This document shows positions 4,012-64,000 of a stretch of 64,000 bases of DNA, piece by piece. Source of the stretch: an uncultured Bdellovibrionales bacterium (GTDB lineage: Bacteria > Patescibacteriota > Minisyncoccia > Moranbacterales > UBA1568); the NCBI GenBank assembly GCA_964537075.1, contig CAZIBB010000001.1, positions 19,072 to 83,071 on the forward strand. The letters run 5' to 3'. Within the stretch, counting starts at the first letter, position 1. Each line of letters begins with the position of its first letter. The notes below the pieces were generated by a model. That model was not told where the DNA came from. It did no database searches and worked only from the letters and a program-made list of their open reading frames with translations. The translations under genes were made by a program, and so were the position numbers.

Positions 4012-4051
4012 TTTTGGAGGCTAAACCTCCATGGAGGTTTAGCCTCCAAAA
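4012..4051. repeat. REP-like perfect palindrome TTTTGGAGGCTAAACCTCCATGGAGGTTTAGCCTCCAAAA flanking the transposase 3' end
   Basis: The 32-nt core GGAGGCTAAACCTCC-ATGG-AGGTTTAGCCTCC is its own reverse complement. It abuts the transposase stop codon at 4052-4054. Confidence 0.9.
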
Positions 4052-4711
4052 TTATTCCATCAACAAAGCTCTTTCAATCTGCTTTCTTTCTAAAATTCCA
4101 ATTAGGGAACTCTCTGAAAAATCTTTGTATTCCTCTTGACTGCGGAATTGTCCAAGTACAATATTTTTTTCACAATATTCGCGCTTTGTTTTTCCGATAT
4201 ATTCATTCCAACTTGAACGAGTAAGAATATCATCTTCATATCGATGCACACGAAAATTCAGATTTACATACGCACTCAAGTGCAATAAATATTCATTCGT
4301 TTCAATATGAATTGCCTTGAATGTTCCCTGGAACAGCGAGCCGCTTCGTGTATACTTTTTATTGAAATACATCGTGTATCCTGTACCAAATCGCTGCATA
4401 AACTTCTCCACCCCCTTATCTGAAACCTGCCTAAGAATAAAATGGAAATGATTCGGATTAATGCAGTATGCAATAACCTCAACCAACGGCTCTTCCTTTT
4501 CTTCATCCTTTATAACTACCTTTCCAAAACTTTTTTCATGAGATTTTTTTTCATAAATACTCCCTATAGGATTGAGTGTATTAAATTCAACCATGCTCTG
4601 CAGAAACCTCTCTGCATCAGTCACATCTTCTATAATCATTCTCTTTTCCACTCCACGATTATAAATATGATATACCTCCTCATTTGCAAATATCACTTTT
4701 CTCATAAGCAT
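4052..4711 (-). CDS. REP-associated tyrosine transposase (RAYT; Y1 HUH, IS200-like Y1_Tnp family)
   Basis: N-terminal YHIYNRG, HUH motif NPNHFHFIL, and a GSLFQGTFKAIHIE block comparable to the GxLWQxRYY region of Y1 transposases. The ORF track starts at 4756, inside the palindrome; the likely true start is M at 4711 or 4705 (MLMRKV...). Confidence 0.75.
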   Translation of the reverse strand: MLMRKVIFANEEVYHIYNRGVEKRMIIEDVTDAERFLQSMVEFNTLNPIGSIYEKKSHEKSFGKVVIKDEEKEEPLVEVIAYCINPNHFHFILRQVSDKGVEKFMQRFGTGYTMYFNKKYTRSGSLFQGTFKAIHIETNEYLLHLSAYVNLNFRVHRYEDDILTRSSWNEYIGKTKREYCEKNIVLGQFRSQEEYKDFSESSLIGILERKQIERALLME

Positions 4712-4719
4712 TGACGTTA

Positions 4720-4756
4720 TTTGGAGGCTAAACCTCCATGGAGGTTTAGCCTCCAC
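4720..4756. repeat. REP-like palindrome, second copy, flanking the transposase 5' end
   Basis: TTTGGAGGCTAAACCTCCATGGAGGTTTAGCCTCC, identical core to 4012..4051. Confidence 0.9.
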
Positions 4757-4764
4757 GATTTCAG

Positions 4765-5114: not shown

Positions 5115-5837
5115 TTATTTCAAAAGTTCATTTTCATCACCTGCAAACCGTCGATTTATGACAAGTTCATCAGAAACGATTTTTCCATCAACCATACGGA
5201 GGATGCGCTTGGCATGCTCGGCGGTGAATGTCTCATGCGTCACGAGGATGATGGTTCGACCGGCGTCATTCAGTTGTTGGAGGATATGCATGACCTGGAG
5301 ACCTGATTTGGAATCGAGGTTGCCGGTCGGTTCGTCGGCAAAAATAATCTCAGGATTATTGACGAGCGCCCGAGCGATAGCAACTCGTTGCTTCTCGCCG
5401 CCCGAAAGCTGATTGGAAAAATACTGCGCGCGGTGAGACATATTGACCGCAACGAGCGCCGCATCCACCCGCGCCTTATTATTCTCCAGCATCTCATCAT
5501 CATACAGGAGCGGAAGCTCGACATTCTCGAATACCGTCGTTTTCGGGAGGAGATTGAATGCCTGAAACACAAAGCCGATTTTCTTATTTCGCAACACAGC
5601 TAATTCATCATCGTCAAATTCACTGATATTCTTCCCCTCGAGAAGATATTCCCCTCCCGTCGAACGATCAAGCAAACCCAAAATCTGCATCAGAGTAGAT
5701 TTCCCCGATCCCGATGGCCCCATGATCGAAATGAATTCCCCTCTCCCAACGGAAAAAGTCACCCCATCCAAGGCTCGCGTCTCAACGCCCTCATTGGCAT
5801 AGACTTTTTCCAAGTTTTTTATGGAGAGGAGAGACAT
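5115..5837 (-). CDS. ABC transporter ATP-binding protein (MacB-type ATPase)
   Basis: Walker [13 protein letters not shown] signature [15 protein letters not shown], Walker [13 protein letters not shown]. Likely start [12 protein letters not shown] at 5837; the ORF track extends to 5894. Confidence 0.9.
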
Positions 5838-5975
5838 ACGAGGAAAACACAAAAAATCAAACCACAAAAATCCAGACAAAGCACAGATATACAAAACACA
5901 AACTATACAAGGCTCTCGATTTTTTGTTTGGCATTTTGTGTTCTGAGCTTTGTGCTTTCAAAAAAATTTATCTTA
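5838..5975. repeat. CA-rich/TG-rich long inverted repeat, copy 1, with conserved core TTTGTTTGGCATTTTGTGTTCTGAGCTTTGTGCTTT
   Basis: ACAAAGCACAGATATACAAAACACAAA is followed by its approximate reverse complement. It lies 5' of the ABC ATPase gene; the core is shared with 6973..7135 and 62411..62563. Confidence 0.7.
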
Positions 5976-6971
5976 TTAATTTTTTTGTTTTGCTCCGATA
6001 GTCACTTCATCCCCATCCTTGAGTCCAGATACGATCTCGATCACGCCTTCATCCCCTTCAAGACCGGTCGCTACTTCCATCTTTTCAAAATTATTTTCTC
6101 CACGCCGCACCTCGGCATAGGTGATGCCATCCTCTTTGAAAAGCGCGCGGAACGGTACGATCAGAACATTTTCCCGCTTAGCCGTCTCGATATCGATATT
6201 CGCCGTCATGCCCTCCTTGAGTCGGGTATCAGCATCACTCAAACGGAACTTCACCACATATGAGACCACACCCTGCAGCACCGTGGCTGCCGTATCGATA
6301 TCCGTCGCTTCCGCGGCGAATTTCTCGGAAGTCGAAAAGGCATCGAAGGTCACAATCGCCTTCATGCCGACCTTCACTTTCGCGATATCGGATTCCGGAA
6401 CCCGAGCCTCGATAATGAATTCCTGCGGTTTCGAGATGCGTGCCACTATTTTCCCTGCGGTGACCACCTCGCCCACGCGCGCATCCATCGAGACAACCTG
6501 GCCATCGATCGGGGCGTGGAGTATACCGTTTCGTATCTGAGTGATGAGTCCCGAAACGGCCTCTCTCGATTGTTCCGAGACGAGCTTCTTCGCCAGAATC
6601 GCCTCCGATGTCGAGGAGTGGGACTTTCGTACCGAAAGCTCGTTCGCCTCCGCGATACGCACCGCGAGGCGAGCTTCATTCAGCTGCGATTGGAGTATTG
6701 TCCGGTCGACTGACGCGAGAGGAGCGCCCACCGTGACCGTATCCCCTTCCTTCACATACACCTTATCGATCACGCCGAGACCCTGGAAGGAAAGATCTGA
6801 GTATGACACCGGTACGAGTTCTCCAGTCACGCTCACGGTCTCGATAATCTCCCCTTTCTTCACGGTCTCCGTCGGCACGATGACGACGTTCGTCTTGCTC
6901 CGATAATAGAAATACCCGCCGATAAGGACGATAACGAGAAAGACGATGATAATTTTCTTTTTAGTAAACAT
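5976..6971 (-). CDS. Efflux periplasmic adaptor / membrane fusion protein (HlyD/MacA family)
   Basis: 331 aa. N-terminal TM, biotinyl/lipoyl-like half-motifs, coiled-coil, beta-barrel. First gene of the efflux operon. Confidence 0.85.
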   Translation of the reverse strand: MFTKKKIIIVFLVIVLIGGYFYYRSKTNVVIVPTETVKKGEIIETVSVTGELVPVSYSDLSFQGLGVIDKVYVKEGDTVTVGAPLASVDRTILQSQLNEARLAVRIAEANELSVRKSHSSTSEAILAKKLVSEQSREAVSGLITQIRNGILHAPIDGQVVSMDARVGEVVTAGKIVARISKPQEFIIEARVPESDIAKVKVGMKAIVTFDAFSTSEKFAAEATDIDTAATVLQGVVSYVVKFRLSDADTRLKEGMTANIDIETAKRENVLIVPFRALFKEDGITYAEVRRGENNFEKMEVATGLEGDEGVIEIVSGLKDGDEVTIGAKQKN

Positions 6972-6972
6972 A

Positions 6973-7135
6973 GATTCGTATTAAAACACAATAATCAAAG
7001 CACAAAGACCAAACAAATCACAAAACACAGGAGCCAAAAAGCATCTTACACAAAGAGATTTGTTTGTGTTTTGAATTTTGTGTTTTGTTTGACATTTTGT
7101 GTTCTGGGTTTTGTGTTTTTTAAAACAAGTTTGAT
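6973..7135. repeat. CA/TG inverted repeat, copy 2 (core TGTTTTGTTTGACATTTTGTGTTCTGGGTTTTGTGTTTTTT)
   Basis: Same architecture as copy 1, 5' of the HlyD gene. Confidence 0.7.
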
Positions 7136-7548
7136 TGTTTCGCGGCTTCATCCATGGCGCGATTCGCCTCGGCATCGGCTATCGTATTCAGCTCCCGCCG
7201 CACATGAACGAAAGTCACTTCCTTGAAATCAAGCGAGAGATTCCACACCTCGAAAAAGTATGGCTGGAGCTTCTCATTTTCAATCTTATAGATATGATTC
7301 AATTGCCTCATGGCGAGCTCGCTATCCATCCGACACTCGATATCTACTTTCTTCGCCTTTTCCTTCCCAAGCAAGGCTTTTATTTTCTTCAACCCAAACA
7401 CGATTGCGGCATATTCCGCCTCATTGTTCGTTTTCGTTCCGAGAAATTCTCCAAATCGCTTATCCAGCGTCTCGATATATACCCCTAACGCGGACGGTCC
7501 AGGATTCCCCCGTGATCCGCCATCGCTATACATCACTATCTTTTCCAT
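7120..7548 (-). CDS. rnhA: Ribonuclease HI
   Basis: MEKIVMYSDGGSRGNPGPSALGV...NNEAEYAAIV...NTIADAEANRA match RNase H catalytic motifs. Likely start at 7548. Confidence 0.8.
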   Translation of the reverse strand: MEKIVMYSDGGSRGNPGPSALGVYIETLDKRFGEFLGTKTNNEAEYAAIVFGLKKIKALLGKEKAKKVDIECRMDSELAMRQLNHIYKIENEKLQPYFFEVWNLSLDFKEVTFVHVRRELNTIADAEANRAMDEAAKQSNLF

Positions 7549-7612
7549 AGAGACAGTATAACGTATATTTATGGAAAAGAAAAAGCCACCAAACATGTCG
7601 TTCGATGACCCT

Positions 7613-8017
7613 TTAAGCATACCCTCGTCGCAAGGCGATGTCATTCTCCGCCTCCGCGATATTATTCGCAGATATGACATCAACTATTTTTAATCTTCTC
7701 GATTGAGGTTCCGTAACCCAAGAAATACTCTTACGGTTGCGCAAATGAACAAATATCAGATACTCCGGCGGAATCTCACCTAGGGCAAGCCATGAACTAT
7801 TCCATGGTTCTTTCTCGGGATCGGGTTTCCTCATCTCCCTCGGCGCCTCAGGGGCGCATAAAGCTACATCAACGAAGCCCTCACTCTCCAGGGCAGTAAC
7901 GCGACCGATCCGCCAAGCAAACTGATAGTTTTTTCCGCTGAATATCCTCTTGAGAGATTCTCGGAAAATAACCCAGTCTCCCGGCTGCAATAAAGATTTT
8001 TTTGCCATTTTTATCAA
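7613..8017 (-). CDS. Hypothetical protein
   Basis: 134 aa, no recognisable motif. Confidence 0.35.
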   Translation of the reverse strand: MIKMAKKSLLQPGDWVIFRESLKRIFSGKNYQFAWRIGRVTALESEGFVDVALCAPEAPREMRKPDPEKEPWNSSWLALGEIPPEYLIFVHLRNRKSISWVTEPQSRRLKIVDVISANNIAEAENDIALRRGYA

Positions 8018-10378: not shown

Positions 10379-11467
10379 TCATCTCCTGATTTTTTCCAAT
10401 TGTTCGAGCATTTTCCGTTCTTCGGAAGAGACTTTTTTCGGAATATCAATAGTCAATTCCACCAAATGGTCTCCTGCATCGAAATGACCCATACGAATAC
10501 CCTTCCCCCTGATACGAAATATTTCCCCTGGCTGCGTACCGGCAGGAACCTTGATGATTACCTCGCTATCAATGGTCGCTACGGAAATTTTTCCACCCAA
10601 AACTGCGAGAGGATAAGCGATAGCTTTTTTTGAAAGGATATTGCGACCATTCCGACGAAACTCCTTGTGTGGAAGGACATGAATATTCACATAGAGATCA
10701 CCAGGACGAGTGCCTCGTTCGCCTGCCTCACCATATCCCTCAACTGACATCGTCTGCCCATTTTCGATGCCCGCGGGGATAGAGAGGGAAAGCGATTCCG
10801 TTTCGATCACGCGACCCTCGCCATGACACCTTGAGCAGACTTCCGGATAATATTTTCCTGTGCCCTGACACCTTGCACACATCACCGCCTGATTGATGGT
10901 GCCAAAAATAGTCCGAACAGCCTGAGATATTCTCCCCGCTCCGTGACAATCTGGACAGGTTTTTTCCTGTATTCCCTTTTTCCCGCCAGTACCAAAACAC
11001 TCCGGACACATGACCCTCTTTCGCAAACTGATATCCTTTTTCACACCATGGACCATTTCCTCAAAAGTAATCTCAACATCAGTCTGTATATCTGATCCGC
11101 CGCGCCTGCCTGATCGCGACCCGCCACCAGAGAAAATATCGGAAAAAATATCTTCGAAACCGCCACCAGAGAAATTAAATCCGCCCTGAGAAAAATTACC
11201 GAAATCGAATCCCTCGAAGCCGCCGCCCGCTCCACCCGCACCGCTTGGTGCTCCATTGTCGTGAAATCCCTGCCCAAACTGATCATACTTTCGACGTTTT
11301 TCGGCATCCGAAAGCACCTGGTAAGCCTCATTTGCCTCCTTGAATTTTTTCTCATCTCCACCACCCTTGTCCGGATGATACTTGTGGGCTTGTTTTCGGA
11401 ATGCTTTTTTGATCTCATCAGCCGAAGCGCCTTTACTCACCCCGAGAATATCGTAATAATCTGCCAT
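10379..11467 (-). CDS. dnaJ: Molecular chaperone DnaJ
   Basis: J domain DYYDILGV...KYHPDK, a Gly/Phe-rich region, and four CxxCxGxG zinc-finger repeats. Confidence 0.9.
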
Positions 11468-11535: not shown

Positions 11536-11562
11536 TTAGCAATCACATACGATGAGTGCTAA
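11536..11562. promoter_or_regulatory. CIRCE operator (HrcA binding site) upstream of dnaJ
   Basis: TTAGCAATC-N9-GAGTGCTAA against consensus TTAGCACTC-N9-GAGTGCTAA; 69 nt upstream of the dnaJ start. Confidence 0.75.
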
Positions 11563-12588: not shown

Positions 12589-12640
12589 AGTTTGAAGAAG
12601 AGTTTAGAGGAGAGAGATGAGAGTTTAGGAATTTTTATAA

Positions 12641-12664
12641 CGCCTGCCTGCCGGTAGGCAGGCG
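12641..12664. repeat. GC-rich palindrome CGCCTGCCTGCC-GGTA-GGCAGGCAGGCG
   Basis: Perfect 10-bp arms. Same family as 36323..36345 and 37421..37444. Confidence 0.85.
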
Positions 12665-12706
12665 CTTCTTGATCCGCCAGCCGGCGGAGTCCGCTGTAAA
12701 AAATTT

Positions 12707-22848: not shown

Positions 22849-23036
22849 AATCTCTCTCAGATCTCACCGCAAAGATGAAAAAACAAAGACTTCTTCTGCT
22901 TGTCGCCTGAAATTCCATAATTTTGGCTGCAAATCCTGAAAAGCTCGTCGGGTTATCATGATAGCCCTCCTCACTTTTTCAGAATTTTCGCTCAAACTGA
23001 TGGAATTTCATGCCCGACATGAGATTTGAGAGAGAC
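22849..23036. mobile_element. MITE-like element, copy i (TIR flavour TCTCTCTCAGATCTCA / TGAGATTTGAGAGAGA)
   Basis: Terminal inverted repeats of 16 bp. The internal core CTGCTTGTCG..GGCTGCAAATCCTGAAAAGCTCGTCGGGTTATCATGATAGCCCTCCTCAC..TTTTCGCTC is shared with 41837..42018, 56352..56532 and 63832..64000. Confidence 0.8.
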
Positions 23037-25490: not shown

Positions 25491-25532
25491 TTTTTGGAGG
25501 TCGAACCTCCATGGAGGTTCGACCTCCAAAAA
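25491..25532. repeat. REP-like palindrome, third (orphan) copy, variant GGAGGTCGAACCTCC-ATGG-AGGTTCGACCTCC
   Basis: Same GGAGG...CCTCC-ATGG-GGAGG...CCTCC architecture as the copies flanking the transposase. The loop change CTAAA to TCGAA is mirrored symmetrically in the other half. Confidence 0.85.
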
Positions 25533-26774
25533 TTACTTATACAACGGAAACTGCTTGCATAACACTCGTATATCCTTACGCAACTTGTTACGTAACTTCG
25601 CATCGCCTTTATTCTTCCAGGCGGTATCGATGATACGGGCGATTTCCTTCACTTCACGCTCTTTCATCCCGCGTGTCGTGATCGCTGGAACGCCGATACG
25701 CACCCCACTCGGATCGAGCGGCCCGCGCGGATCATCCGGAATGACATTCTTATTGATGGTGATCCCCACTTCCTCCAATATATATTCCGCTTCCTTTCCA
25801 GTGAGGCCATAGCTCTTCACCGTATCGATCACGATCATATGATTCTCCGTTCCACCGAAGAGAATATACGCGCCGCCCTTATAGAGTTCCTTTTCGAGCA
25901 CCTTCGCATTTTTCAGTGTCTGTTTCGCGTACTTCCTGAACTCTGGTTTCAATGCCTCACCGAATGCCACCGCTTTGGCCGCCACGACGTGCATGTGTGG
26001 CCCTCCCTGCGTTCCCGGGAAAATAGCCTTGTCAATCGCCCTTGCAAATTCTTTCTTGCAGAGAATCATGCCTCCACGCGGTCCGCGCAGCGTCTTGTGC
26101 GTCGTCGCTGTCACGATATCGAAGTGCGGCACCGGACTCGGCAGCGCTTTCCCGGCGATGAGTCCCGCGATATGCGCCATGTCCATCATGGTCAATGCCT
26201 TCACCTTCTTTGCAATCGCGACGAACAACGCATAATCAATCTGCCGGGTATATGAAGAGAATCCCGCGAGCATGAGCTTCGGTTTTTCTTTTCTCGCAAG
26301 CGCTTCCAATTTTTTATAATCGATGCTGCCATCAGGTTCGGTTTTGTACCGAACGAAATTATACACCTTGGCCGGCAAGGTCACCGGATGACCATGCGTC
26401 AGATGTCCGCCATGAGAGAGATCCATGCCGAGCACCGTATCGCCCGGCTGAAGGAGTGCTGCATATACAGCGAGATTCGCCTGCGCCCCCGAATGCGCCT
26501 GCACATTCGCATGTTCCGCTCCGAACAATTTCTTCACGCGATCGAGCGCGAGCGTTTCCGCGACATCCGTCCATTCCTGTCCGCCATAGTACCTTTTCCC
26601 CGGATACCCTTCGGAATATTTGTTCGTGAAGACCGTCCCGAGCGTTTCCATCACCGCCTGCGAGACATAATTCTCCGACGCGATCATTTCCAATCCTTCT
26701 TCCTGCCGTTTTTCTTCGCCCATCACCGCGGCATACACCGCCTTGTCCGCCTTCTTCAGAATATCATGCTTCAT
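25533..26774 (-). CDS. glyA: Serine hydroxymethyltransferase
   Basis: PLP site [12 protein letters not shown] and the GHLTHGH block; 413 aa. Confidence 0.9.
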
Positions 26775-36300: not shown

Positions 36301-36322
36301 ATTTTTTTGTTTTTATTTTTGC

Positions 36323-36345
36323 CTGCCTGCCATAGGCAGGTTCAT
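36323..36345. repeat. GC-rich palindrome GCCTGCCTGCC-ATA-GGCAGG (family of 12641)
   Basis: ftsL-rsmH spacer. Confidence 0.7.
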
Positions 36346-37329: not shown

Positions 37330-37344
37330 ACTCCATCATTTCTT

Positions 37345-37466
37345 AATTTCGAATTTCGAATTTTTAATTTCGAGTGAATTCTAAATGACTTCATATTTCA
37401 ATCATTCAAAAACTCATCATTCCTGCCTGCCGGCAGGCAGGGATTCAAAATTCGAAATTCGAAATT
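37345..37466. mobile_element. 122-bp mini-element with perfect 20-nt terminal inverted repeats (AATTTCGAATTTCGAATTTT) enclosing a CCTGCCTGCC-GGCAGGCAGG palindrome
   Basis: Left arm 37345-37364, right arm 37447-37466 (exact reverse complement). Internal palindrome 37421-37444. It fills the mraZ-rsmH spacer. Confidence 0.6.
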
Positions 37467-37469
37467 TCT

Positions 37470-37904
37470 TTAATAGACCCCAAGCTTCCCCAGCTGCTCC
37501 GCGATCTTCCCCGTCTGTTTCTCCGCGAGTCCCTTGTATTTCTTCCACCGATCCTCGCTCCAGATTTCCAATCGATTATAAAGACCGACCACCACGGTAT
37601 CTTTCTTCAATCCGGCGTACGCTTTCAAATAATCCGGTACGAGCACGCGCCCCTGACTGTCGAGATCGACATCCACCGCACCCGCGAGCATCATACGAGT
37701 GAAGCTTCGAGTCCCCGCTTCTCCGACTGGCATGCTTCCGAGTTTCGCCGCGATCTCCTCCCATACTTTCATCGGATACACAAAGAGACAGTCATCAAGT
37801 CCGCGAGTCACTACTACTTTCGATCCCAACTCACCACGAAATTTCGATGGCATAGCCAACCGCTTCTTCGGATCGATCGTATGATTGTATTCGCCGATAA
37901 ACAT
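37470..37904 (-). CDS. mraZ: Transcriptional regulator MraZ
   Basis: MFIGEYNHTIDPKKRLAMPSKFR..., duplicated MraZ fold; 144 aa. Confidence 0.85.
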   Translation of the reverse strand: MFIGEYNHTIDPKKRLAMPSKFRGELGSKVVVTRGLDDCLFVYPMKVWEEIAAKLGSMPVGEAGTRSFTRMMLAGAVDVDLDSQGRVLVPDYLKAYAGLKKDTVVVGLYNRLEIWSEDRWKKYKGLAEKQTGKIAEQLGKLGVY

Positions 37905-38111
37905 ATTCGTAACTTATAACAAACGACTGACAACCAACGACCAGAAAATACATAAACTAAAAACTGTCGCTGTATTGTTGTAAGTTGTATGTCGTATGTC
38001 GTCAGTTTTTATAGTTTCCCCACTTCTCACCACTTTTAGTGTGAGTAGCTCCATTTTACTCCACTTATAATACAAGCGTCAACATCTCGCCCCACCAAAG
38101 TTATCCACCGT

Positions 38112-38150: not shown

Positions 38151-38302
38151 AAATATCCAGATTTTTCTCCTTCAAATAAATTCTTCAGCGTGACTTTACG
38201 ATCAAAAGCATGGTCTTTTTTGCTTTTAAAAAAAGTTTTGAGCGTAATGTCAGTTCAGTTTCGCTGGAAACCGAACGGCGATGGAAAATTTATTTGAAGG
38301 AT

Positions 38303-38535
38303 GATAAATGGTATTAACCCCAAAGCAAGCTCTTGACACTGAAATGAACAAAAGTTCATTTCATTTCCGCGTCCCGTCTCGCCGACGAGGTAGACAAGCC
38401 GCGGGGTATTTACCCTGTGTTACCCGCCTCGCGTCGATGAGTCCGTGAGTCGAGGCGGGCCGTCACTCTCCGTCAGCTGACGGACGAAAGTAAAAGTAAG
38501 AACTTTTAGCCTTACTCACTCACTCGGTAATAAAT
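38303..38535. ncRNA. Candidate structured RNA, family S2 copy 1 (orientation unresolved)
   Basis: Shares the 5' block ATAAATGGTATTAACCCC and GGTATTTACCC/GTTACC/CGTCACTC/ACTCACTC..GGTAATAA blocks with 43965..44126. Three hairpins carry compensatory substitutions between copies, and copy 1 has extra hairpin insertions (GCCTCG...CGAGGC, CCGTCAG-CTGACGG). TGGTATTAA resembles an extended -10. Confidence 0.5.
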
Positions 38536-38592
38536 TTTCCATCCTATATGGTAATCTCCCCCATGGGAAGCATCGCTCAAAATTCATGTCAT

Positions 38593-41836: not shown

Positions 41837-42018
41837 AGAGCCTGTTGAAAAATCCACCGCCTGTGATATAGAGATCTGCTTGTCGGCTATAATCTCAGAA
41901 TTTCGGCTGCAAATCCTGAAAAGCTCGTCGGGGTATCATGATAGCCCTCCTCACCTGTTCAGAATTTTCGCTCGAAATTCTGAAATTATAACTCGACATG
42001 ACTTTTTCAACAGGCTCT
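41837..42018. mobile_element. MITE-like element, copy ii (TIR flavour AGAGCCTGTTGAAAAA / TTTTTCAACAGGCTCT)
   Basis: 182 bp with perfect 16-17-bp terminal inverted repeats and the same core as copy i. Confidence 0.8.
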
Positions 42019-42722: not shown

Positions 42723-43958
42723 TCAAGGCTTTGCAGGCAAATCCGATTGAAAATCGATATACTTCCTCCCTATGAGTTTTTCCGGAAGATACGCCTGCCT
42801 CGCCTCCTCCTTGTTTTTGAAATCCGGAGTGTATTTGTAGTCCTTTCCGTAGCCCAATCCCTTCATCAATTTAGTCGGAGCATTCCGGAGATGCAGTGGC
42901 ACCGGCTCATTCGGAAATTTCGCAATATCTTCTTTCACCCTCGCATATCCCGCATAGAGCGCATTTGATTTCTTCGACTTCGCGAGATACACAACCGCCT
43001 GTGCAAGATTCATTTCGCATTCAGGCATACCGATATTCCTGCATGCCTCGAAAGCGGCAACCGCCTGCGGCAACGCGAATGAATTGGCGATACCGATATC
43101 TTCCGAAGCGAACCGTATGAGGCGCCTCGCGACATATAGAGGATCCTCCCCAGCCTCGAGCATCCGTCCGAGCCAATAGAGCGAAGCGTTTGCATCATCC
43201 CCGCGCATGGATTTATGCAACGCCGAAATGATATCATAATGCCATTCGCCATCCTTATCATAAAGCAGATGGGAACGCGCCATCACCTCCTCGATCAGTT
43301 TCACCGAGATCTTCGCCGCGCGCATCGCGCATGCCTCAAGCGCCGAGAGTGCCTGACGTGCATCGCCCCCCGATGCCTCCGCGAGAAACAAAAGTCCTCC
43401 CTTCTCCACTGAAATTTTTCCTGAGAGAAGCACTTCATCGGAAGCGAGCGCCCGCTCCAATAACTTCTCGATGACTGCGGCGGAAAGTTTTTCCAATACC
43501 AAAACGCGCGTCCGGGAGAGCAGTGCAGCATTCACGGAAAAACTCGGGTTCTCGGTCGTCGCCCCGATAAGGATGATTATCCCATTCTCGACATATGGAA
43601 GCAGAGCATCCTGCTGCGCCTTGTTCCATCGATGTATCTCATCAAGAAAAAGAATCGTTCGTCTCTTCGCTTCGTAGTTTTCTTTCGCGCGCGCTATCAC
43701 CATCTGCAAATCCTTCTTCCCGCTGCTGACCGCCGAAAGCTGAATGAATTCCGCGGAAAGTTCCGTCGTGAGGAGCCTTGCGAGCGTCGTCTTGCCACTT
43801 CCTGGTGGCCCCCAAAAGAGAAGCGACGGAACACTCCCTTGCCGGACCGCCTCGCGGAGAAACGACCCCTCTCCAAAAATTTTCTCCTGTCCAAAAAACT
43901 CCGAAATCGTTTTCGGTCGCAATCGTTCCGCAAGCGGGATGTTTTTTTGCTCACTCAT
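42723..43958 (-). CDS. rarA: Replication-associated recombination protein A (RarA/MgsA AAA+ ATPase)
   Basis: Walker [12 protein letters not shown], ...[16 protein letters not shown]..., MgsA C-terminal helical domains. Likely start [15 protein letters not shown] at 43958. Confidence 0.85.
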
Positions 43959-43964
43959 AATAAA

Positions 43965-44126
43965 TGGTATTAACCCCGGAGCAAGCTCCGGACATTGAAA
44001 CGAGCAAGAGCTCGTTTCAATTTCGCGGTCCCGCCATGGCGGGACGAGGTATTTACCCATATGTTACCGTCACTCGCTCGAAAGTGAAAGTAAGAACTTT
44101 CACTTTACTCACTCGCTAGGTAATAA
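43965..44126. ncRNA. Candidate structured RNA, family S2 copy 2
   Basis: See copy 1. Hairpins CCGGAG-CAAG-CTCCGG, TTGAAACGAGC-AAGA-GCTCGTTTCAA, AGTGAAAG-TAAGAA-CTTTCACT. It fills the tsaC-rarA spacer, ending 7 nt before the rarA ATG. Confidence 0.5.
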
Positions 44127-44726
44127 TTGTTCTCCGATTTCGACCGCACCAGACCGAATAAGTGTCACACGGCCATTTTCCAATTTCACGATTGTGGATG
44201 GTTTACTCTGAAGTATCCCTCCATCAACATAAAAATTAATTTTGTCTCCAAAATATTTTTTCGCTTCTTCAATCGTTTCTGCTGGACGCATTCCTTGGAT
44301 ATTCGCACTCGGTGCGATGAGCGGTCCCGTTTCACGCAGAAGGGTTCGGAGCGATTCATCGTCTGGAATACGAAAGACTAAATGTGCTGTACCACGAGAC
44401 AAATATTGTAAATCTTCATTCGCACAAGAAAGCATCACACTTACCTTTCCCGGCCATACTGTCTCAAGCCAAGTTTTCTCTTTCAATGACAATTTGATAG
44501 AAAATTTCTCAAGCTCGGAAAAATCAGCAATGAGAATGATGCAGGGTTTATCGACATCTCGCTTCCGAAGAGCATATACTTTCTCGATAGCATCTTCTTT
44601 CCAAACGCTCGCCACCATGCCGTAGAGCGTGTCGGTCGGGATGATTCCCACGCCGCCTGACTTCAGCGATTGGATGATATCTTTCCCGAACATACTCATA
44701 TCTTCATCGTGATCCCGATCGGGCAA
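44109..44726 (-). CDS. tsaC: L-threonylcarbamoyladenylate synthase (TsaC/YrdC/Sua5 family)
   Basis: GGVGIIPTDTLYGMVASVW...KPCIIL.... Confidence 0.75.
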   Translation of the reverse strand: MPDRDHDEDMSMFGKDIIQSLKSGGVGIIPTDTLYGMVASVWKEDAIEKVYALRKRDVDKPCIILIADFSELEKFSIKLSLKEKTWLETVWPGKVSVMLSCANEDLQYLSRGTAHLVFRIPDDESLRTLLRETGPLIAPSANIQGMRPAETIEEAKKYFGDKINFYVDGGILQSKPSTIVKLENGRVTLIRSGAVEIGEQLLPSE

Positions 44727-56351: not shown

Positions 56352-56532
56352 AGAGCCTGTTGAAAAATCCACCGCCTGTCAAAAAAGATATGCTTGTCGG
56401 CTTACATTCCAGAATTTCGGCTGCAAACCCCTCAAAGCTCGTCGGAATATCCCGATATTCCTCCTCACTTTTCACGGTTTTCGCTCGAAATTCTGGAATG
56501 TAACGCTCGACATGGCTTTTTCAACAGGCTCT
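56352..56532. mobile_element. MITE-like element, copy iii (AGAGCCTGTTGAAAAA flavour)
   Basis: 181 bp with perfect terminal inverted repeats. Its end abuts the pilO stop codon. Confidence 0.8.
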
Positions 56533-60414: not shown

Positions 60415-61031
60415 TTATCATTCAAATTCCGAAGCTCAGCAAAAGACTCGATATTGATGAAGTCCGGAGCGTGGTTCGGATCGATATTTATCATCAAATG
60501 CACCTTAACCAATCGAACATTCGATATCGCTACCGGTGTGACGAGCGGGGTATCCGCAGGGTAATCAGCATTATAATAATAAAATATCGGATCACTCTCG
60601 GTATTGACGACTGAAGTGGAAATGATATCCGTCGTCTCGTCTCCGCTTGGATAGGTGACGGGCGTTCCCGACGTCGGATTCGTGATTCCACGATACAAGG
60701 TACTCCCCGAAAGATAATAGTGTACCCGCTCGGTTATATTGTCCCTATCGATATCCAGATATACCTTCAGATCAAAATCATCACCCGACTCCACCGGATA
60801 ATCACCATTGTCCGCCTGTCGCGTCCTGCGAATTTCCTTCACAACCTGATTGACACCGCGAGAGGCTATAAGCGAGGCATTCCCCATCTCGATGATAAAC
60901 TTATTGCTCTCCCAACTGCGAAGAAAAAGTATGGTCATCGCCTCCATACCGATAGTCACTATGGCGATGGCCATAATCATCTCTATGAGGGACATCCCTT
61001 TTTTTGTCTGTGTTCTCTTCATATCTTTCAA
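60411..61031 (-). CDS. Type IV pilin-like protein (prepilin-type N-terminal cleavage/methylation domain)
   Basis: KKGMSLIEMIMAIAIVTIG: class III signal with the G/xxLIE cleavage motif. Confidence 0.7.
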   Translation of the reverse strand: MKDMKRTQTKKGMSLIEMIMAIAIVTIGMEAMTILFLRSWESNKFIIEMGNASLIASRGVNQVVKEIRRTRQADNGDYPVESGDDFDLKVYLDIDRDNITERVHYYLSGSTLYRGITNPTSGTPVTYPSGDETTDIISTSVVNTESDPIFYYYNADYPADTPLVTPVAISNVRLVKVHLMINIDPNHAPDFINIESFAELRNLNDN

Positions 61032-62410
61032 CTTGCCGTCAACGCAAACGATTTTTCCCCAAGCGCGTTCCCCGGAAGAGCGATCGTCCCGGTTCCGGTT
61101 TCAAATCCCGTTGCGGTAATATTCACGTCATACGTTCCCGCCGCAAGCGGCGTGTTCAATACCGGAAAATACGCTTGACCATATGTGTCAGTGACTACCG
61201 TTTCATCATATCCGAGAGCGATGCTCTTCAATTGGACCGACGCACTGGCTATCGCCGGTCCACTCGCTCCATTCGTTACCTTAATCAAAGCGGAAGAGAC
61301 ATTTCTATTCGCGAGAATCATGGTTATTTCCGGCGTAGTATTCGGCAAAAGATGTATCGTTCCAAATGAAGGCTCTTCAGGTGTCAGTCGAAGAAATGAA
61401 TATCCCGTCTCACCCGTCCCGAGTGCGACCGTATATACTCCCGAACTTCGATTGTTCAAGGATCTTTCACCATCGCCATCGGTAGTAGTATCCTCCGCAT
61501 AGTCGTACTTTGTCGAGGTATCAGCGTTCGTTCCGATTATCAATCCGCCGGAAATCGTAAAATTTCTATTCGGTACACTCACAGCATACGGATCTTCCGT
61601 CCGAAAATTGATCGTCGACTTCCGATCTGATACCAATGTCGTCGTCGTCAGGCTTCCTGCGACTATCGATGTATGCGTATTCGCCGGATAGAATGTTGAG
61701 GTCGGATAAGGGTCATATGTCTGATTGCTATAATACCCGTTCTTATCGACTGAGATATGATATCCCTGCACCGATGCCACGGCCCCAGGAAATGTCCCAT
61801 TGCCATTCGCATCCGTATCAAATGTCATATCGACTGACGGAGAAACGGAAATGTTCGTCACGTGCACGGTGGCACCGGACACACCAATGCCCGCATCATT
61901 CAACACATTAACCGAAAGAATACCCGTTCCGGCGGCTACCGATTCGACACCGTCAAGGGAAAACAATGATACGGCAGACACCTTCTCTGAGTCGGTAGCA
62001 CCGCCCCAAAAAACCGTAATGGTCACTTTTTTATAATCATTCGGAGCAGCATCGGTTCCAAGCGCTGCGGATCCATCCGTTGAATCATCAACGTATTGAA
62101 CTACTGTTTTGACGGTATATGTCGTCGTATTCGCTGCTATTGTCTGATTCGGAATAATAATACCCGGAGGAATACCGGCTATCGTTCCGACTTCATCGAA
62201 TGCAAGTCCTCGAATGATTTCTATCTGCTGATTGGCGACAGCCGTCGCGCCGAGTCGGTTTTTCGCATTGATGATATGTTTCGTCCCGAGCGACCATGTC
62301 TGATAAAATGAAAGGGTAATAACGGAAAAAATAAACAGGAAGGCCAGTGCCTCAATCAATGTGAAGCCTTTCTTCGTCTTTCGTCTTTCGTCTTTCGTCT
62401 TTTGTATCAT
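61028..62410 (-). CDS. Large type IV pilin-like protein (460 aa) with C-terminal beta-sandwich repeats
   Basis: KKGFTLIEALAFLFIF: canonical prepilin N-terminus. The long T/S/G-rich extracellular part suggests Ig/CarD-like repeats. Confidence 0.65.
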   Translation of the reverse strand: MIQKTKDERRKTKKGFTLIEALAFLFIFSVITLSFYQTWSLGTKHIINAKNRLGATAVANQQIEIIRGLAFDEVGTIAGIPPGIIIPNQTIAANTTTYTVKTVVQYVDDSTDGSAALGTDAAPNDYKKVTITVFWGGATDSEKVSAVSLFSLDGVESVAAGTGILSVNVLNDAGIGVSGATVHVTNISVSPSVDMTFDTDANGNGTFPGAVASVQGYHISVDKNGYYSNQTYDPYPTSTFYPANTHTSIVAGSLTTTTLVSDRKSTINFRTEDPYAVSVPNRNFTISGGLIIGTNADTSTKYDYAEDTTTDGDGERSLNNRSSGVYTVALGTGETGYSFLRLTPEEPSFGTIHLLPNTTPEITMILANRNVSSALIKVTNGASGPAIASASVQLKSIALGYDETVVTDTYGQAYFPVLNTPLAAGTYDVNITATGFETGTGTIALPGNALGEKSFALTAS

Positions 62411-62563
62411 ATTTCTTCAAAAAACACAGTCTCCAAAGCACAGAAATCAAACAAAACACAGTATTTAAAAACACAAAACTCAAACCAAGAAAGAGAGAGT
62501 TTGTGCTTTTATTATTCTGCATTGTGTTTTGTTTGGCATTTTGTGTTTTCTATTTTGTGCTTT
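62411..62563. repeat. CA/TG inverted repeat, copy 3 (core TGTGTTTTGTTTGGCATTTTGTGTTTTCTATTTTGTGCTTTTT)
   Basis: Between the pilC stop and the pilin gene start; same conserved core as copies 1 and 2. Confidence 0.7.
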
Positions 62564-63784
62564 TTACTTGATATTCTCCAATACGGAGTACATCGGAGTG
62601 AGCATCGCCACTGCGAAAAATCCCACGCCGCTTCCGATGAACAGCATGAGAATCGGTTCCAGGATGGAAGACATGTTCTTCGTGATCTGATCCACCTCTC
62701 CCTCATAAAAATCCGCCAGCCGGGCAAGGACGGTCTCGGTTTTCCCTGTCTCTTCTCCTACTTCAATGATCTGTGGTACGAGAATCGGGAAAATTTTCGG
62801 ATAGCGCCGGATAACCACGCTCATTTCCACACCTTTCTGAATCTCATTGAGCGCCTCGGTCAACGCGTCACGGTAGTATACGTTCGAGAGCGTTTTCATC
62901 ACGATAGAAAGACCGTCCACCACCGATACGCCGGATCGGAGCAAAGAACTGTAAATGCGGGCGAAACGCGCGCAGTTCACCTTGATGATGATATTTCCAA
63001 TGATTGGCAGGGAGAGAAAAAGCCAATCGAACCAGCGCTTGCCGAACGGCTGGCTATAAAGAAATTTGATGCCTACGACGAGTCCGATACACAGGCCGAT
63101 GACGATGAAATAGTGTGCGATCAAAAAATCGGAGATTCCCATGATGAACAGGGTTGATTTCGGAAGCGCCACATCCATATCTTTGAACACGCCGGTAATC
63201 TTCGGCAAAATATAGGTAAGCATCAGAACGGCGATACCGATCATCGCTATAAAAATCACCGCCGGATATATCAGGGCGCCACGAACCTTGGATGTCAAAT
63301 CATTTTCCTTCTCCAGCTGGATAGCGAGGATTTCAAGCACTTCCTCGAGATTGCCGCTCACCTCACCCACATTGATCATGTTGACGAAGAGCTCGTTAAA
63401 CACCGTCGGAAACTTCGCCAACCCCTCCGAGAGGGTGAGACCCGCCTGCAGATCATCATGTACCGACACGAGAATCTTCCGGAAGGATTTATTATTCGTC
63501 TGTTCGCTCAAGTTCGATACCGCGCGGGAAATAGTGAGTCCCGAAGAGACCATCACCGCGAGGTTTCTCGTGAAAATCATTTTTTCCTTCAACGGGATGG
63601 AGACGAAGCGATCGAAAAATTTCACGCTTGCCTTTTTTTCATCCGGCTGAAGCGATTTCAACGAAGTGACCAGCCACCCTTCCGCCCGCAGATTTTTCGC
63701 CACGTCCTGGTCGCTTTTGGCCTCGATCTCACCACCGCGCGTCTCGCCGGTCGCAATATTTCTCGCCGTATAGATAAACTTCAT
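62564..63784 (-). CDS. pilC: Type IV pilus inner-membrane platform protein PilC (GspF family)
   Basis: Two T2SSF repeats (...LSEGLAKFPTVFNELFVNMINVGEVSGNL...); 406 aa. Confidence 0.9.
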   Translation of the reverse strand: MKFIYTARNIATGETRGGEIEAKSDQDVAKNLRAEGWLVTSLKSLQPDEKKASVKFFDRFVSIPLKEKMIFTRNLAVMVSSGLTISRAVSNLSEQTNNKSFRKILVSVHDDLQAGLTLSEGLAKFPTVFNELFVNMINVGEVSGNLEEVLEILAIQLEKENDLTSKVRGALIYPAVIFIAMIGIAVLMLTYILPKITGVFKDMDVALPKSTLFIMGISDFLIAHYFIVIGLCIGLVVGIKFLYSQPFGKRWFDWLFLSLPIIGNIIIKVNCARFARIYSSLLRSGVSVVDGLSIVMKTLSNVYYRDALTEALNEIQKGVEMSVVIRRYPKIFPILVPQIIEVGEETGKTETVLARLADFYEGEVDQITKNMSSILEPILMLFIGSGVGFFAVAMLTPMYSVLENIK

Positions 63785-63831: not shown

Positions 63832-64000
63832 TCTCTCTCAAATCTCACCGCATGAGATAAAAAAACAAAGATTTCTCCTGCTTGTCGGCTAAAATTTCAT
63901 CATTTCGGCTGCAAATCTCGAAAATCTCGTCGGAATATCCAGATATTCCTCCCTGCCCGAAATGCTACGCATGCCGTTGCAGGCGGGCTCACTTTTCAAA
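63832..64000. mobile_element. MITE-like element, copy iv (TCTCTCTCAAATCTCA flavour), truncated by the window end
   Basis: Begins TCTCTCTCAAATCTCACCGCATGAGAT...CTGCTTGTCGGCT...GGCTGCAAATCTCGAAAATCTCGTCGG. Same core as copies i to iii. Confidence 0.7.

What the first reader, a model, noticed from the sequence alone, without database searches (positions are those of the whole stretch)
5838..7135. Conserved CA/TG-rich long inverted repeats in the 5' regions of three minus-strand genes
Three spacers (5838-5975, 6973-7135, 62411-62563) each contain a CA-rich stretch (ACAAAGCACA, ACAAAACACA) followed by its TG-rich approximate reverse complement. They share a conserved roughly 40-nt core (TGTTTTGTTTGRCATTTTGTGTTYTG.G.TTTGTGYTTTTT). 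In the sense of the genes (HlyD, ABC ATPase, large pilin) these would form long 5' or intercistronic hairpins located immediately after the preceding gene stop. This matches REP-like intercistronic stabilisers or attenuators, or a shared cis-regulatory site.
Basis: seen in the sequence. Interest (0 to 1): 0.5.

Follow-up and report, generated by a model that had tools for sequence, protein, structure and literature searches.

The report
Foldback repeat filling gene-to-gene spacers
The three CA/TG-rich hairpin spacers are copies of a dispersed palindromic repeat of about 120-155 bp. In Moranbacteria (candidate phyla radiation) it sits between the stop codon of one gene and the start of the next, even inside ribosomal-protein operons, and it behaves like a dispensable, MITE/ERIC-type element rather than a regulator shared by these three genes.

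Summary
All three spacers are long imperfect hairpins sharing a ~45-nt core (3 exact core matches, 0.02 expected).

They belong to a repeat family found on at least 17 contigs of Moranbacteria-type genomes. Each arm is an array of 4-5 CACAAA(A) boxes and the two arms are inverted. The element runs from the upstream stop codon, which often abuts the first box, to about 0-11 nt before the next ATG.

It is not tied to these genes. Elsewhere it lies at L3|L4, S14|S8, S8|L6, SecY|Adk, GatC|GatA and MurA|MreB.

It is dispensable and turns over. One relative has a 5-nt RNaseH|HlyD spacer where the window has copy 2. Other relatives carry hairpins built from different boxes there. Related spc operons have 3-20-nt spacers.

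The core is kept between carriers whose S8 proteins are 39% identical.

Cognate arms pair no better than swapped arms, neither strand is favoured, and nothing matches Rfam, promoters, terminators or a conserved small ORF.

Best reading: an undescribed MITE/ERIC-like foldback repeat that is co-transcribed as an intercistronic hairpin. A domesticated RNA role is not excluded, given a 13:2 orientation bias and orthologous copies 82-88% identical. Transposase and target duplication are unresolved.

The parts
5841..5962 (-). Copy W1 of the CACAAA-box foldback element, in the HlyD|ABC-ATPase spacer. The hairpin runs 5959-5843.
   Evidence: Covariance model R1 scores 94.9 bits. Fold -35.5 kcal/mol. 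Exact core at 5925-5944.
6979..7123 (-). Copy W2, in the RNaseH-like|HlyD spacer. The hairpin runs 7119-6983. The upstream stop TAA (7120-7122) abuts the first box.
   Evidence: R1 133.1 bits. Fold -41.8 kcal/mol. Orthologous copies in L005 (87-88% identical) and L126. Empty site in L127.
62417..62567 (-). Copy W3, in the PilC|pilin-like spacer. The hairpin runs 62566-62418. The PilC stop TAA (62564-62566) abuts the first box, and the ATG (62408-62410) follows 8 nt after the last box.
   Evidence: R1 119.7 bits. Fold -41.8 kcal/mol. Orthologous copies in L128 and L129 are 88% and 82% identical.
5925..5944 (+). Conserved core of W1 (TGTTTGGCATTTTGTGTTCT). In gene sense it reads AACACAAAATGCCAAACA and lies in the 5' arm, with the conserved TG internal-loop bases.
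7086..7105 (+). Conserved core of W2 (TGTTTGACATTTTGTGTTCT).
62530..62549 (+). Conserved core of W3 (TGTTTGGCATTTTGTGTTTT).
5976..6971 (-). HlyD-family membrane-fusion gene. W2 lies upstream of it and W1 downstream.
   Evidence: Pfam HlyD_3 and HlyD_D23.
5115..5837 (-). ABC-transporter ATPase gene downstream of W1.
   Evidence: Pfam ABC_tran, E = 1.5e-33.
7120..7683 (-). RNase H-like gene whose stop codon abuts W2.
   Evidence: Pfam RVT_3 and RNase_H.
61028..62410 (-). Pilin-like gene (N-terminal methylation motif) downstream of W3.
   Evidence: Pfam N_methyl and CarboxypepD_reg.
62564..63784 (-). PilC (T2SSF) gene whose stop codon abuts W3.
   Evidence: Pfam T2SSF, E = 2e-56.

Best explanation
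The three spacers are copies of a dispersed, non-coding foldback repeat of about 120-155 bp, found in Moranbacteria-type CPR genomes.

Anatomy (shown). Each arm is an array of 4-5 CACAAA(A) boxes spaced 14-19 nt apart, around the core AACACAAAATGCCAAACAAAACACAA. The two arms are inverted, so either DNA strand, or the mRNA, folds into an interrupted hairpin of about 50 bp.

Placement (shown). The element occupies the whole gap between two co-directional genes. The upstream stop codon abuts the first box, and the next ATG follows 0-11 nt after the last box.

Behaviour (shown). It acts as a proliferating, dispensable element of the MITE/ERIC/Correia kind. It is multicopy. It is gained, lost or replaced at orthologous junctions. 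It is better conserved between distant genomes than their ribosomal proteins.

Mechanism (inferred).
- It is co-transcribed with the operon and forms an intercistronic RNA hairpin.
- It is tolerated, even in ribosomal-protein operons, for three reasons: it has no GC-rich stem with a free U-tract and so should not terminate; it regenerates the stop codon; and the hairpin keeps the stop and the next start physically close.
- As with ERIC, REP and Correia elements, it may secondarily affect mRNA processing or stability.

Unknown. The mobilising enzyme and the target duplication.
For: Family and copy number:
- The 19-mer core found the same architecture in 7 genome contigs, 4 of them titled Candidatus Moraniibacteriota, and in about 8 metagenome contigs.
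- Covariance model R1 found further diverged copies. L091 has six elements in 7 kb, at S14|S8, S8|L6, L18|S5, S5|L15, L15|SecY and Adk|Map.

Not gene-specific:
- Downstream genes include L4, Adk, L1, MreB, GatA, TopA and S8.

Dispensable, with turnover:
- L127 has RNaseH-TAA-ATAGT-ATG-HlyD, a 5-nt spacer, where the window, L126 and L005 carry the element.
- L112, L113 and L115 carry hairpins of other box types at that junction, and L005, L113, L115 and L127 do so at the W1 junction.
- The carriers are not monophyletic relative to the empty L127.
- spc operons of relatives L117 and L119 have 3-20-nt spacers and no model hits.

Cross-lineage conservation:
- S8 of carriers L091 and L086 is 39% identical, yet both have the exact 19-mer. 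The 3' core, which was not used for the search, averages 79% pairwise identity.

Repeat-like rather than RNA-like evolution:
- Swapped arms pair as well as cognate arms (-41.8 against -41.4 kcal/mol).
- The two strands fold equally well, with 66 G-U pairs each.

Boundaries:
- The upstream stop lies within -8..+2 nt of the model start in 16 of 20 copies. This also holds for the flipped copy in L128.

Negative results:
- No Rfam family.
- No promoter or terminator signal above shuffles.
- No conserved small ORF.
Against: - No transposase or full-length parent element with these ends was found.
- Target-site duplication is unresolved. TA...TA, GTTTTAA (W2, L126) and TATGA (L014) flanks are suggestive, but they cannot be separated from the element's own A-run and T-run termini.
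- Orientation relative to genes is biased 13:2 (p = 0.007), which a purely selfish TA-targeting MITE would not predict.
- Orthologous copies are as conserved as, or more conserved than, the neighbouring coding DNA. W2 against L005 is 87-88% where the region averages 73.5% and other spacers 35-53%. W3 against L128 is 88% where pilC is 81%. That suggests constraint after insertion.
- Four of about 15 independent loci lie in ribosomal-protein operons. MITEs usually avoid housekeeping regions ('repeat deserts', PMC3184786).
- No transcript data exist, so co-transcription and the RNA hairpin are inferred.
Confidence: 0.62

Rival explanations
1. A selected cis-acting RNA element. The stop-to-start hairpin is a functional intercistronic signal. 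It could be a processing or stability site, for instance for RNase III. Or it could be a device that holds the stop and the next start together for termination-reinitiation in operons that mostly lack Shine-Dalgarno sequences. The conserved AUGCC internal loop would be the recognition site for a factor. The element may be a domesticated repeat.
For: - Orientation bias of 13:2 relative to transcription.
- Strict stop/start abutment in both orientations.
- Orthologous copies 82-88% identical while neutral spacers are 35-53% and the pilin gene 57%.
- The TG asymmetry between the arms is conserved in all copies.
- SD-like motifs precede only 10 of 59 starts in the window.
- Some double changes in the terminal helix: covariation score 0.143 against 0.088 in shuffles.
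- Enrichment in highly expressed operons.
Against: - Dispensable at the orthologous HlyD junction and absent from related spc operons.
- Cognate arms are no better than swapped arms.
- No G-U/A-C strand asymmetry.
- Flipped copies are intact (L026, L128).
- No Rfam match.
- Gene orientation and replication direction are confounded, so the orientation bias need not act at the RNA level.
Confidence: 0.22
2. A DNA-level array of protein-binding sites. The boxes in the pattern ->->->-> <-<-<-<- would bind a DNA-binding protein. This could be the multiple subterminal transposase sites of a foldback, Tn7-like or Mu-like end pair, a nucleoid-associated protein, or a regulator. The hairpin would then be incidental.
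For: - What is conserved is the box sequence, order and spacing, not element-specific pairing.
- There is no strand preference.
- The terminal boxes co-vary as inverted repeats would.
Against: - The elements lie inside operons, with no promoter signal, next to unrelated genes.
- No candidate binding protein or transposase was identified. The only transposase seen in the window (Y1_Tnp, 4052-4756) is flanked by a different palindrome.
- This reading overlaps with the best explanation if the protein is a transposase.
Confidence: 0.12
3. Chance low-complexity sequence. Microsatellite-like CA and TG tracts would happen to be complementary, with no family relationship.
For: - The arms can expand by slippage: L091 has (ACACAAA)n runs.
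- CA-rich and TG-rich shuffled arms already reach about -25 kcal/mol.
Against: - The core occurs 3-5 times against 0.02 expected.
- Arm-preserving shuffles give z = -2.8 to -6.1 in 15 of 15 members.
- Box order and a 45-nt core are conserved over at least 17 contigs.
Confidence: 0.02
4. A small ORF or leader peptide (MPNKTQ...) starting at the conserved ATG in the 5' arm.
For: - The ATG is conserved in all strong copies.
- In L014 the ORF's stop overlaps the downstream ATG.
Against: - ORF length is 8-38 aa, no longer than in the other two frames.
- The stop position and the C-terminus are not conserved.
- Between W2 and L005 most changes are non-synonymous and the stop is lost.
- The apical region differs in length and is only 40% identical between copies on average.
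Confidence: 0.02

Closest known systems
ERIC (enterobacterial repetitive intergenic consensus, about 127 bp) and related bacterial MITEs (Correia/CREE, RUP, Nezha)
   Same: - Size of 100-160 bp.
- Imperfect palindrome with terminal inverted repeats and no transposase gene.
- Dispersed in transcribed intergenic regions and able to fold into a long RNA hairpin.
- Sequence conserved across species.
- Present or absent at orthologous sites.
- TA-type flanks are possible.
The definition and the ERIC features are taken from PMC3184786.
   Different: - The arms are arrays of a short repeated box, in the manner of foldback elements.
- The element abuts the upstream stop codon and fills the spacer up to the next start.
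- It occurs repeatedly inside ribosomal-protein operons, which MITEs usually avoid.
- Several sibling box types occupy the same junctions in related genomes.
- Target duplication and a parent IS are not shown.
REP/BIME elements with RAYT transposases
   Same: - Intercistronic palindromic repeats, co-transcribed and known to stabilise upstream mRNA.
- Species-specific variants occur at orthologous intergenic sites.
   Different: - REPs are 20-40 bp, G+C-rich and carry a GTAG or CGTC head (PMC3733652 abstract).
- These elements are 120-155 bp with 24-39% G+C.
- The window's Y1 transposase is flanked by a different 36-nt palindrome.
Foldback (FB) transposons of eukaryotes (from my own knowledge)
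   Same: Long inverted arms built from tandem short repeats with only a small loop between them.
   Different: - Those are eukaryotic and of kilobase scale.
- No relationship was tested.
Hairpin-forming or palindromic repeats of organelle genomes
   Same: Families of hairpin repeats that invade intergenic spacers of compact genomes (abstracts of PMC2800124 and PMC2670323).
   Different: - A different host and different sequences.
- No stop-codon abutment is reported in those abstracts.
Integron attC sites (from my own knowledge)
   Same: - An imperfect 57-141-nt palindrome between co-directional ORFs.
- Conserved unpaired bases that make the two strands different.
- GCCAAAC and GTTTGG resemble RYYYAAC and GTTRRRY at 6 of 7 positions.
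   Different: - The flanking genes are core housekeeping genes in conserved operon order, not cassettes.
- No integrase was seen.
- The box consensus is not met.

Membership tests
Bacterial MITE (ERIC/Correia type; definition in PMC3184786) | Small size (below about 200-400 bp) and no transposase gene | tested here: met
   The elements are 121-157 bp. The only internal ORFs are 8-38 aa and not conserved.
Bacterial MITE (ERIC/Correia type; definition in PMC3184786) | Terminal inverted repeats | tested here: met
   The terminal boxes AAAARCACA and TGTGYTTTT pair in 84% of cells and change together.
Bacterial MITE (ERIC/Correia type; definition in PMC3184786) | Flanking target-site duplication (direct repeat) | tested here: inconclusive
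   Flanks seen are TA...TA in many copies, GTTTTAA in W2 and L126, and TATGA in L014. All of them overlap the element's own A-run and T-run termini.
Bacterial MITE (ERIC/Correia type; definition in PMC3184786) | Multiple dispersed copies, and presence/absence at orthologous sites (past mobility) | tested here: met
   Three copies in 64 kb and six in the 7-kb L091. Empty site in L127. Short spacers in L117 and L119.
Bacterial MITE (ERIC/Correia type; definition in PMC3184786) | A parent insertion sequence or transposase that recognises the same ends | not tested
None was seen in the sequence held.
Bacterial MITE (ERIC/Correia type; definition in PMC3184786) | Folds into a long RNA hairpin and is co-transcribed | tested here: inconclusive
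   The hairpin is predicted. Co-transcription is inferred from the position inside ribosomal-protein operons. There are no transcript data.
REP/BIME | A 20-40-bp G+C-rich palindrome with a GTAG or CGTC head, associated with a RAYT gene | tested here: not met
   The elements are 120-155 bp with G+C of 0.24-0.39. The GTAG/CGTC head is not part of the family consensus, although it was not searched for as a motif. The Y1_Tnp gene of the window is flanked by GGAGGCTAAACCTCC palindromes instead.
Intrinsic terminator | A short G+C-rich stem followed by an unpaired U-tract | tested here: not met
   The consensus scan flags none of the three elements. The stems are AU-rich and the T-run pairs with the 5' A-run. 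The window has canonical terminators elsewhere.
Any Rfam cis-regulatory RNA or sRNA family | A match at the family's gathering score | tested here: not met
   No matches in 64 kb at gathering score. In E-value mode only sub-threshold matches well below each family's gathering score, mostly to microRNA precursors.
Sigma-70 promoter | -35 and -10 hexamers at a conserved place in the element | tested here: not met
   Promoter-like hits are at shuffle level and lie at different positions in W1 and W3.
TIGR array (PMC12045711) | A long tandem array of units with box C/D motifs and variable dual spacers, next to a Nop-domain Tas gene | tested here: not met
   These are solitary hairpins between housekeeping genes, with no variable spacers. 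No Tas-like neighbour was seen among the 10 flanking gene products scanned. The scan of the other 50 window ORFs listed only 25 of 69 families.
Integron attC | RYYYAAC and GTTRRRY boxes, cassette context, and an integron integrase | tested here: not met
   The boxes match at only 6 of 7 positions. The flanking genes are syntenic core genes such as the spc operon, gatCA and murA-mreB. No integrase was seen, although the family list was truncated.

The most novel reading that the evidence does not exclude
The CACAAA element and its sibling box hairpins could form a lineage-wide 'hairpin punctuation' of Moranbacteria operons. These would be stop-to-start foldback hairpins recognised by a conserved factor through the invariant AUGCC internal loop. 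They would either mark mRNA processing sites or hold the stop and the next start together, so that ribosomes reinitiate across about 140 nt in genomes that mostly lack Shine-Dalgarno sequences. That would be a bacterial counterpart of hairpin-mediated ribosome shunting, built from domesticated mobile repeats.
Probability: 0.15. Interest if true: 0.75.

Novelty: new variant of a known kind. Interest (0 to 1): 0.5.

Why it matters
CPR/Patescibacteria genomes are regarded as streamlined, and I found no paper in the held library describing MITE-like or hairpin repeats in them.

Three features stand out:
- A repeat that repeatedly occupies intercistronic gaps of ribosomal-protein operons.
- It abuts stop codons.
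- Its core is better conserved than ribosomal protein S8 between its carriers.

This would be a useful marker of genome dynamics and of horizontal exchange in these organisms. It would also be a natural test of how translation of downstream cistrons copes with a 140-nt hairpin when Shine-Dalgarno sites are rare.

Practically, the elements inflate spacers, can extend upstream ORFs (the CA-rich arm has no stop codons), and will mislead gene callers and searches for regulatory motifs.

Tried and rejected
- Rfam at gathering and E-value thresholds: nothing beyond generic long-hairpin noise.
- Promoter and terminator scans: at shuffle level and at inconsistent positions. By eye, TTGGCA-N17-TGTGYT does not fit sigma-70, and TGGCA-N-TTGC does not fit sigma-54.
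- Small ORF from the conserved ATG: rejected.
- Strand choice from G-U against A-C mismatches: no asymmetry, 66 against 66, with similar energies on both strands.
- Element-specific arm co-evolution (arm-swap test): none. RNAalifold gave a covariation term of about 0 on the core. Only the terminal helix shows double changes.
- Carriage on phages: six 19-mer hits in IMG/VR, none of which matches the model.
- Search for a transposase in the window: only the IS200-like Y1_Tnp gene with unrelated palindromes. The bulk Pfam scan of 50 ORFs showed housekeeping families, but the output listed only 25 of 69 families.
- TIGR arrays and integron attC: considered and rejected on their defining features (and context).
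- A CRP-like TGTGA/TCACA operator: rejected because the half-sites are more than 50 nt apart and lie inside operons.
- Exact target duplication from the empty/filled comparison: L127 is too diverged in the residual spacer to fix the boundaries.
- Recovering the rest of the 102-kb source contig: only a 2.6-kb duplicate assembly was returned.
Full report
**1. The observation**

The three spacers read as described. The core TGTTTGRCATTTTGTGTTYT occurs exactly once in each spacer, at 5925, 7086 and 62530 on the + strand. Two further near copies lie inside the same spacers. That is 5 matches against 0.02 expected.

The 8-mer TTTGTGYT occurs 16 times against 2.9 expected, and 13 of the 16 are in the three spacers.

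Nearly all genes of the window are on the minus strand. In that sense each spacer is one long interrupted hairpin that spans almost the whole gap:
- 5959-5843: -35.5 kcal/mol.
- 7119-6983: -41.8 kcal/mol.
- 62566-62418: -41.8 kcal/mol, with z from -3.7 to -5.5 across the three.

A CA-rich arm will pair with any TG-rich arm to some degree. I therefore also shuffled each arm separately. The real elements stayed more stable in 15 of 15 family members (z = -2.8 to -6.1).

**2. Anatomy**

In gene sense the element reads as follows: [upstream stop] AAAARCACAAAA-nnCAG-AACACAAAATGCCAAACAAAACACAAAA ... variable apex ... TTGTGYTTTGTTTGG(n)TTTTTGTGYTTTGnnnnTTGTGTTTT, then a few nucleotides and the ATG.

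- Each arm is an array of 4-5 CACAAA(A) boxes spaced 14-19 nt apart, and the arms are inverted.
- One asymmetry is constant. The 5' arm has AA-TG-CC where the complement of the 3' arm has A-N-A(T)-CC. This gives a conserved internal loop.
- The flanking genes are RNaseH-like|HlyD, HlyD|ABC ATPase and PilC|pilin-like.

**3. It is a family, and not specific to these genes**

Scanning public genomes with the 19-mer core returned 29 stretches. Seven of them show the full architecture. Four are titled Candidatus Moraniibacteriota, and the others carry vague or doubtful titles.

The metagenome scan added about eight more contigs. HlyD and PilC homologues of the window are also named Moranbacteria by their sources.

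I built a covariance model from 15 copies. It found further diverged copies. The most striking case is contig L091, which has six elements in 7 kb, one in almost every gap of the spc operon:
- S14|S8
- S8|L6
- L18|S5
- S5|L15
- L15|SecY
- Adk|Map, this last one of a different box type

Elsewhere the element lies at L3|L4, SecY|Adk, S14|S8, NusG|L1, GatC|GatA, MurA|MreB, before TopA, at DnaE|MiaA and after UvrA. A regulator site shared by efflux and pilin genes is therefore excluded.

**4. Boundaries**

The upstream stop codon lies within -1..+2 nt of the model start in 10 of 20 copies, and within -8..+2 in 16 of 20. It is typically TAA followed directly by AAARCACA. The next ATG usually follows 0-11 nt after the model end.

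The same holds for a copy in the opposite orientation, L128 6834-6980.

Because the CA-rich arm has no stop codons, an upstream ORF can run into it, as L15 does in L091.

**5. Dispensable, with turnover**

The window is syntenic with L005 at 73.5% nucleotide identity, and with L112, L113, L115, L126 and L127.

At the RNaseH|HlyD junction:

| Genome | What is there |
|---|---|
| Window, L126, L005 | CACAAA element |
| L127 | TAA-ATAGT-ATG, a 5-nt spacer |
| L112 | Hairpin of CCAAT boxes |
| L115 | Hairpin of GAATTTCGA boxes |
| L113 | Weak CTAATTC-box sequence |

At the HlyD|ABC junction (copy W1), L005, L113, L115 and L127 all carry hairpins of other box types.

On a small HlyD+RNaseH tree the three carriers are not monophyletic relative to the empty L127 and the CCAAT-type L112. 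The tree is unrooted and has no support values.

The spc operons of relatives L117 and L119 have 3-20-nt spacers and no model hits.

These are the signatures of an element that is gained, lost and replaced. They are not the signatures of a component needed to express the neighbouring genes.

**6. Conservation**

The S8 proteins of two carriers, L091 and L086, are only 39% identical, yet both elements contain the exact 19-mer.

Mean pairwise identity across the 15 aligned copies:

| Block | Mean identity |
|---|---|
| 5' core (partly ascertained by the search) | 89% |
| 3' core (not used in the search) | 79% |
| Apex | 40% |

Orthologous copies are well kept. W2 against L005 is 87-88% identical with no indels, where other spacers of the same region are 35-53%. 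W3 against L128 and L129 is 88% and 82%, where pilC DNA is 81% and 80% and the pilin gene 57%.

So the core is constrained, or is homogenised or re-seeded from master copies.

**7. RNA structure or DNA repeat?**

- The two strands fold equally well, and G-U pairs number 66 on each. No strand is favoured.
- Swapping arms between elements gives the same stability as cognate arms, -41.8 against -41.4 kcal/mol. The pairing therefore comes from the shared boxes, not from compensatory evolution within elements.
- On the alignment, 91% of cells pair. The covariation score exceeds the shuffles (0.143 against 0.088). The double changes sit mainly in the terminal helix, at 5 of 9 pairs. Inverted terminal repeats of subfamilies would show the same pattern.
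- Orientation relative to the genes is biased, at 13 against 2 independent loci (p = 0.007). Gene direction and replication direction are confounded in these genomes.

**8. What it is not**

- No Rfam family matches.
- The consensus scan finds no promoter or terminator in the elements above shuffle level. The window has ordinary G+C-rich terminators elsewhere.
- The conserved ATG does not open a conserved ORF.
- There are no copies on viral contigs.
- It is not a TIGR array, an attC site or a REP proper, judged on their defining features (membership table).

**9. Explanation**

Shown:
- A dispersed, multicopy, non-coding foldback repeat with terminal and subterminal inverted boxes.
- It occupies stop-to-start gaps.
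- It is present or absent at orthologous junctions.
- It is widely conserved in sequence.

Inferred:
- It spreads, or once spread, as a non-autonomous element of the MITE/ERIC/Correia kind.
- It is co-transcribed.
- It is tolerated because it preserves the stop codon, is not a terminator, and folds so that the stop and the next start stay adjacent.
- It may secondarily influence mRNA processing or stability, as those elements do (PMC3184786).

The flanks are compatible with a short target duplication. Examples are TA...TA, GTTTTAA on both sides of W2 and L126, and TATGA on both sides of the L014 copy, where it would have split an overlapping ATGA stop/start. They cannot be separated from the palindrome's own termini. 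No mobilising enzyme was found.

The main rival is a selected RNA function, possibly by domestication. It keeps real support from the orientation bias, the conserved internal loop and the slow evolution of orthologous copies.

**10. Novelty and score**

The kind is known: MITE/ERIC-like intergenic palindromes. The family appears undescribed. Five full-text searches found nothing on such repeats in CPR.

It differs from known families in four ways:
- box-array arms;
- stop-codon abutment;
- repeated occupation of ribosomal-protein operons;
- the coexistence of several sibling box types at the same junctions.

I rate it a new variant of a known kind, with interest 0.5.

Noticed in passing
window 4013-4760 and 25493-25533: An IS200-like Y1 transposase gene (4052-4756, minus strand; Pfam Y1_Tnp) is flanked by near-identical 36-41-nt perfect palindromes, TTTGGAGGCTAAACCTCCATGGAGGTTTAGCCTCCAAA, at 4013-4053 and 4720-4760. 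A third copy lies at 25493-25533. The unit appears to be missing at the syntenic place in L005, where the homologous flanks lie much closer together, so it looks like an insertion of the REP/RAYT or IS200/IS605 type.
   Followed up: partly
window 22873-23007, 41853-41987, 56367-56501, 63855-63952; L113 1267-1518: A second repeat family (four copies) forms 110-190-nt hairpins. Its apex is conserved, of the form GAGGAGG..TATC..GATA..CCGACGAGC. It is also present in a related genome and has no Rfam match.
   Followed up: no
window 11536-11562 (minus strand): A CIRCE-like inverted repeat, TTAGCACTC-N9-GATTGCTAA, lies upstream of dnaJ (10379-11467). It is conserved at the same place in L112, L113 and L115.
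   Followed up: partly
window 37330-37469, 37898-38035, 12589-12706; L005 6663-6767; L112 9840-10000 and 13118-13259; L115 9895-10000 and 10997-11111: Other long hairpins, built from different short boxes (AATTTCGAA, ACGACATAC, CTCTC, TACAAAT, CCAAT, TTGAAAATTGA), also fill spacers, most of them up to the next start codon. Each genome seems to have its own favoured box types. The CACAAA family may be one member of a wider class.
   Followed up: partly
window 12634-12662, about 36320-36345, 37422-37450: A small G+C-rich palindrome, CCTGCCTGCCGGCAGGCAGG, recurs three times, sometimes nested inside the larger hairpins. Similar palindromes (CCGCCGGCTGGCGG) occur in L112 and L113.
   Followed up: no
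window 62364-62410: The pilin-like gene begins with tandem TTTCGTC repeats. They encode MIQKTKDERKTKDERKTKKGFTLIE, an unusually long, charged and repeated leader ahead of the G|FTLIE prepilin cleavage motif.
   Followed up: no
window 38301-38371 / 43957-44027 and 38505-38539 / 44098-44132; L113 10997-11167 and 1831-1969: Two further repeated segments of about 70 nt and 35 nt lie upstream of two window genes. One motif from them (a G+T-rich hairpin followed by TTCGAGCGAG.GACGGTA.CAT) also appears in spacers of L113, and L113 and L128 carry 23S_rRNA_IVP-family genes nearby.
   Followed up: no
whole window: Shine-Dalgarno-like motifs precede only 10 of 59 predicted starts. No Rfam family reaches its gathering score anywhere in the 64 kb.
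   Followed up: partly
L129 121-381 and L130 5-958: A reverse-transcriptase (RVT_1) gene lies just upstream of PilC in two close relatives. In the window that spacer instead holds a copy of the second repeat family (63855-63952).
   Followed up: no
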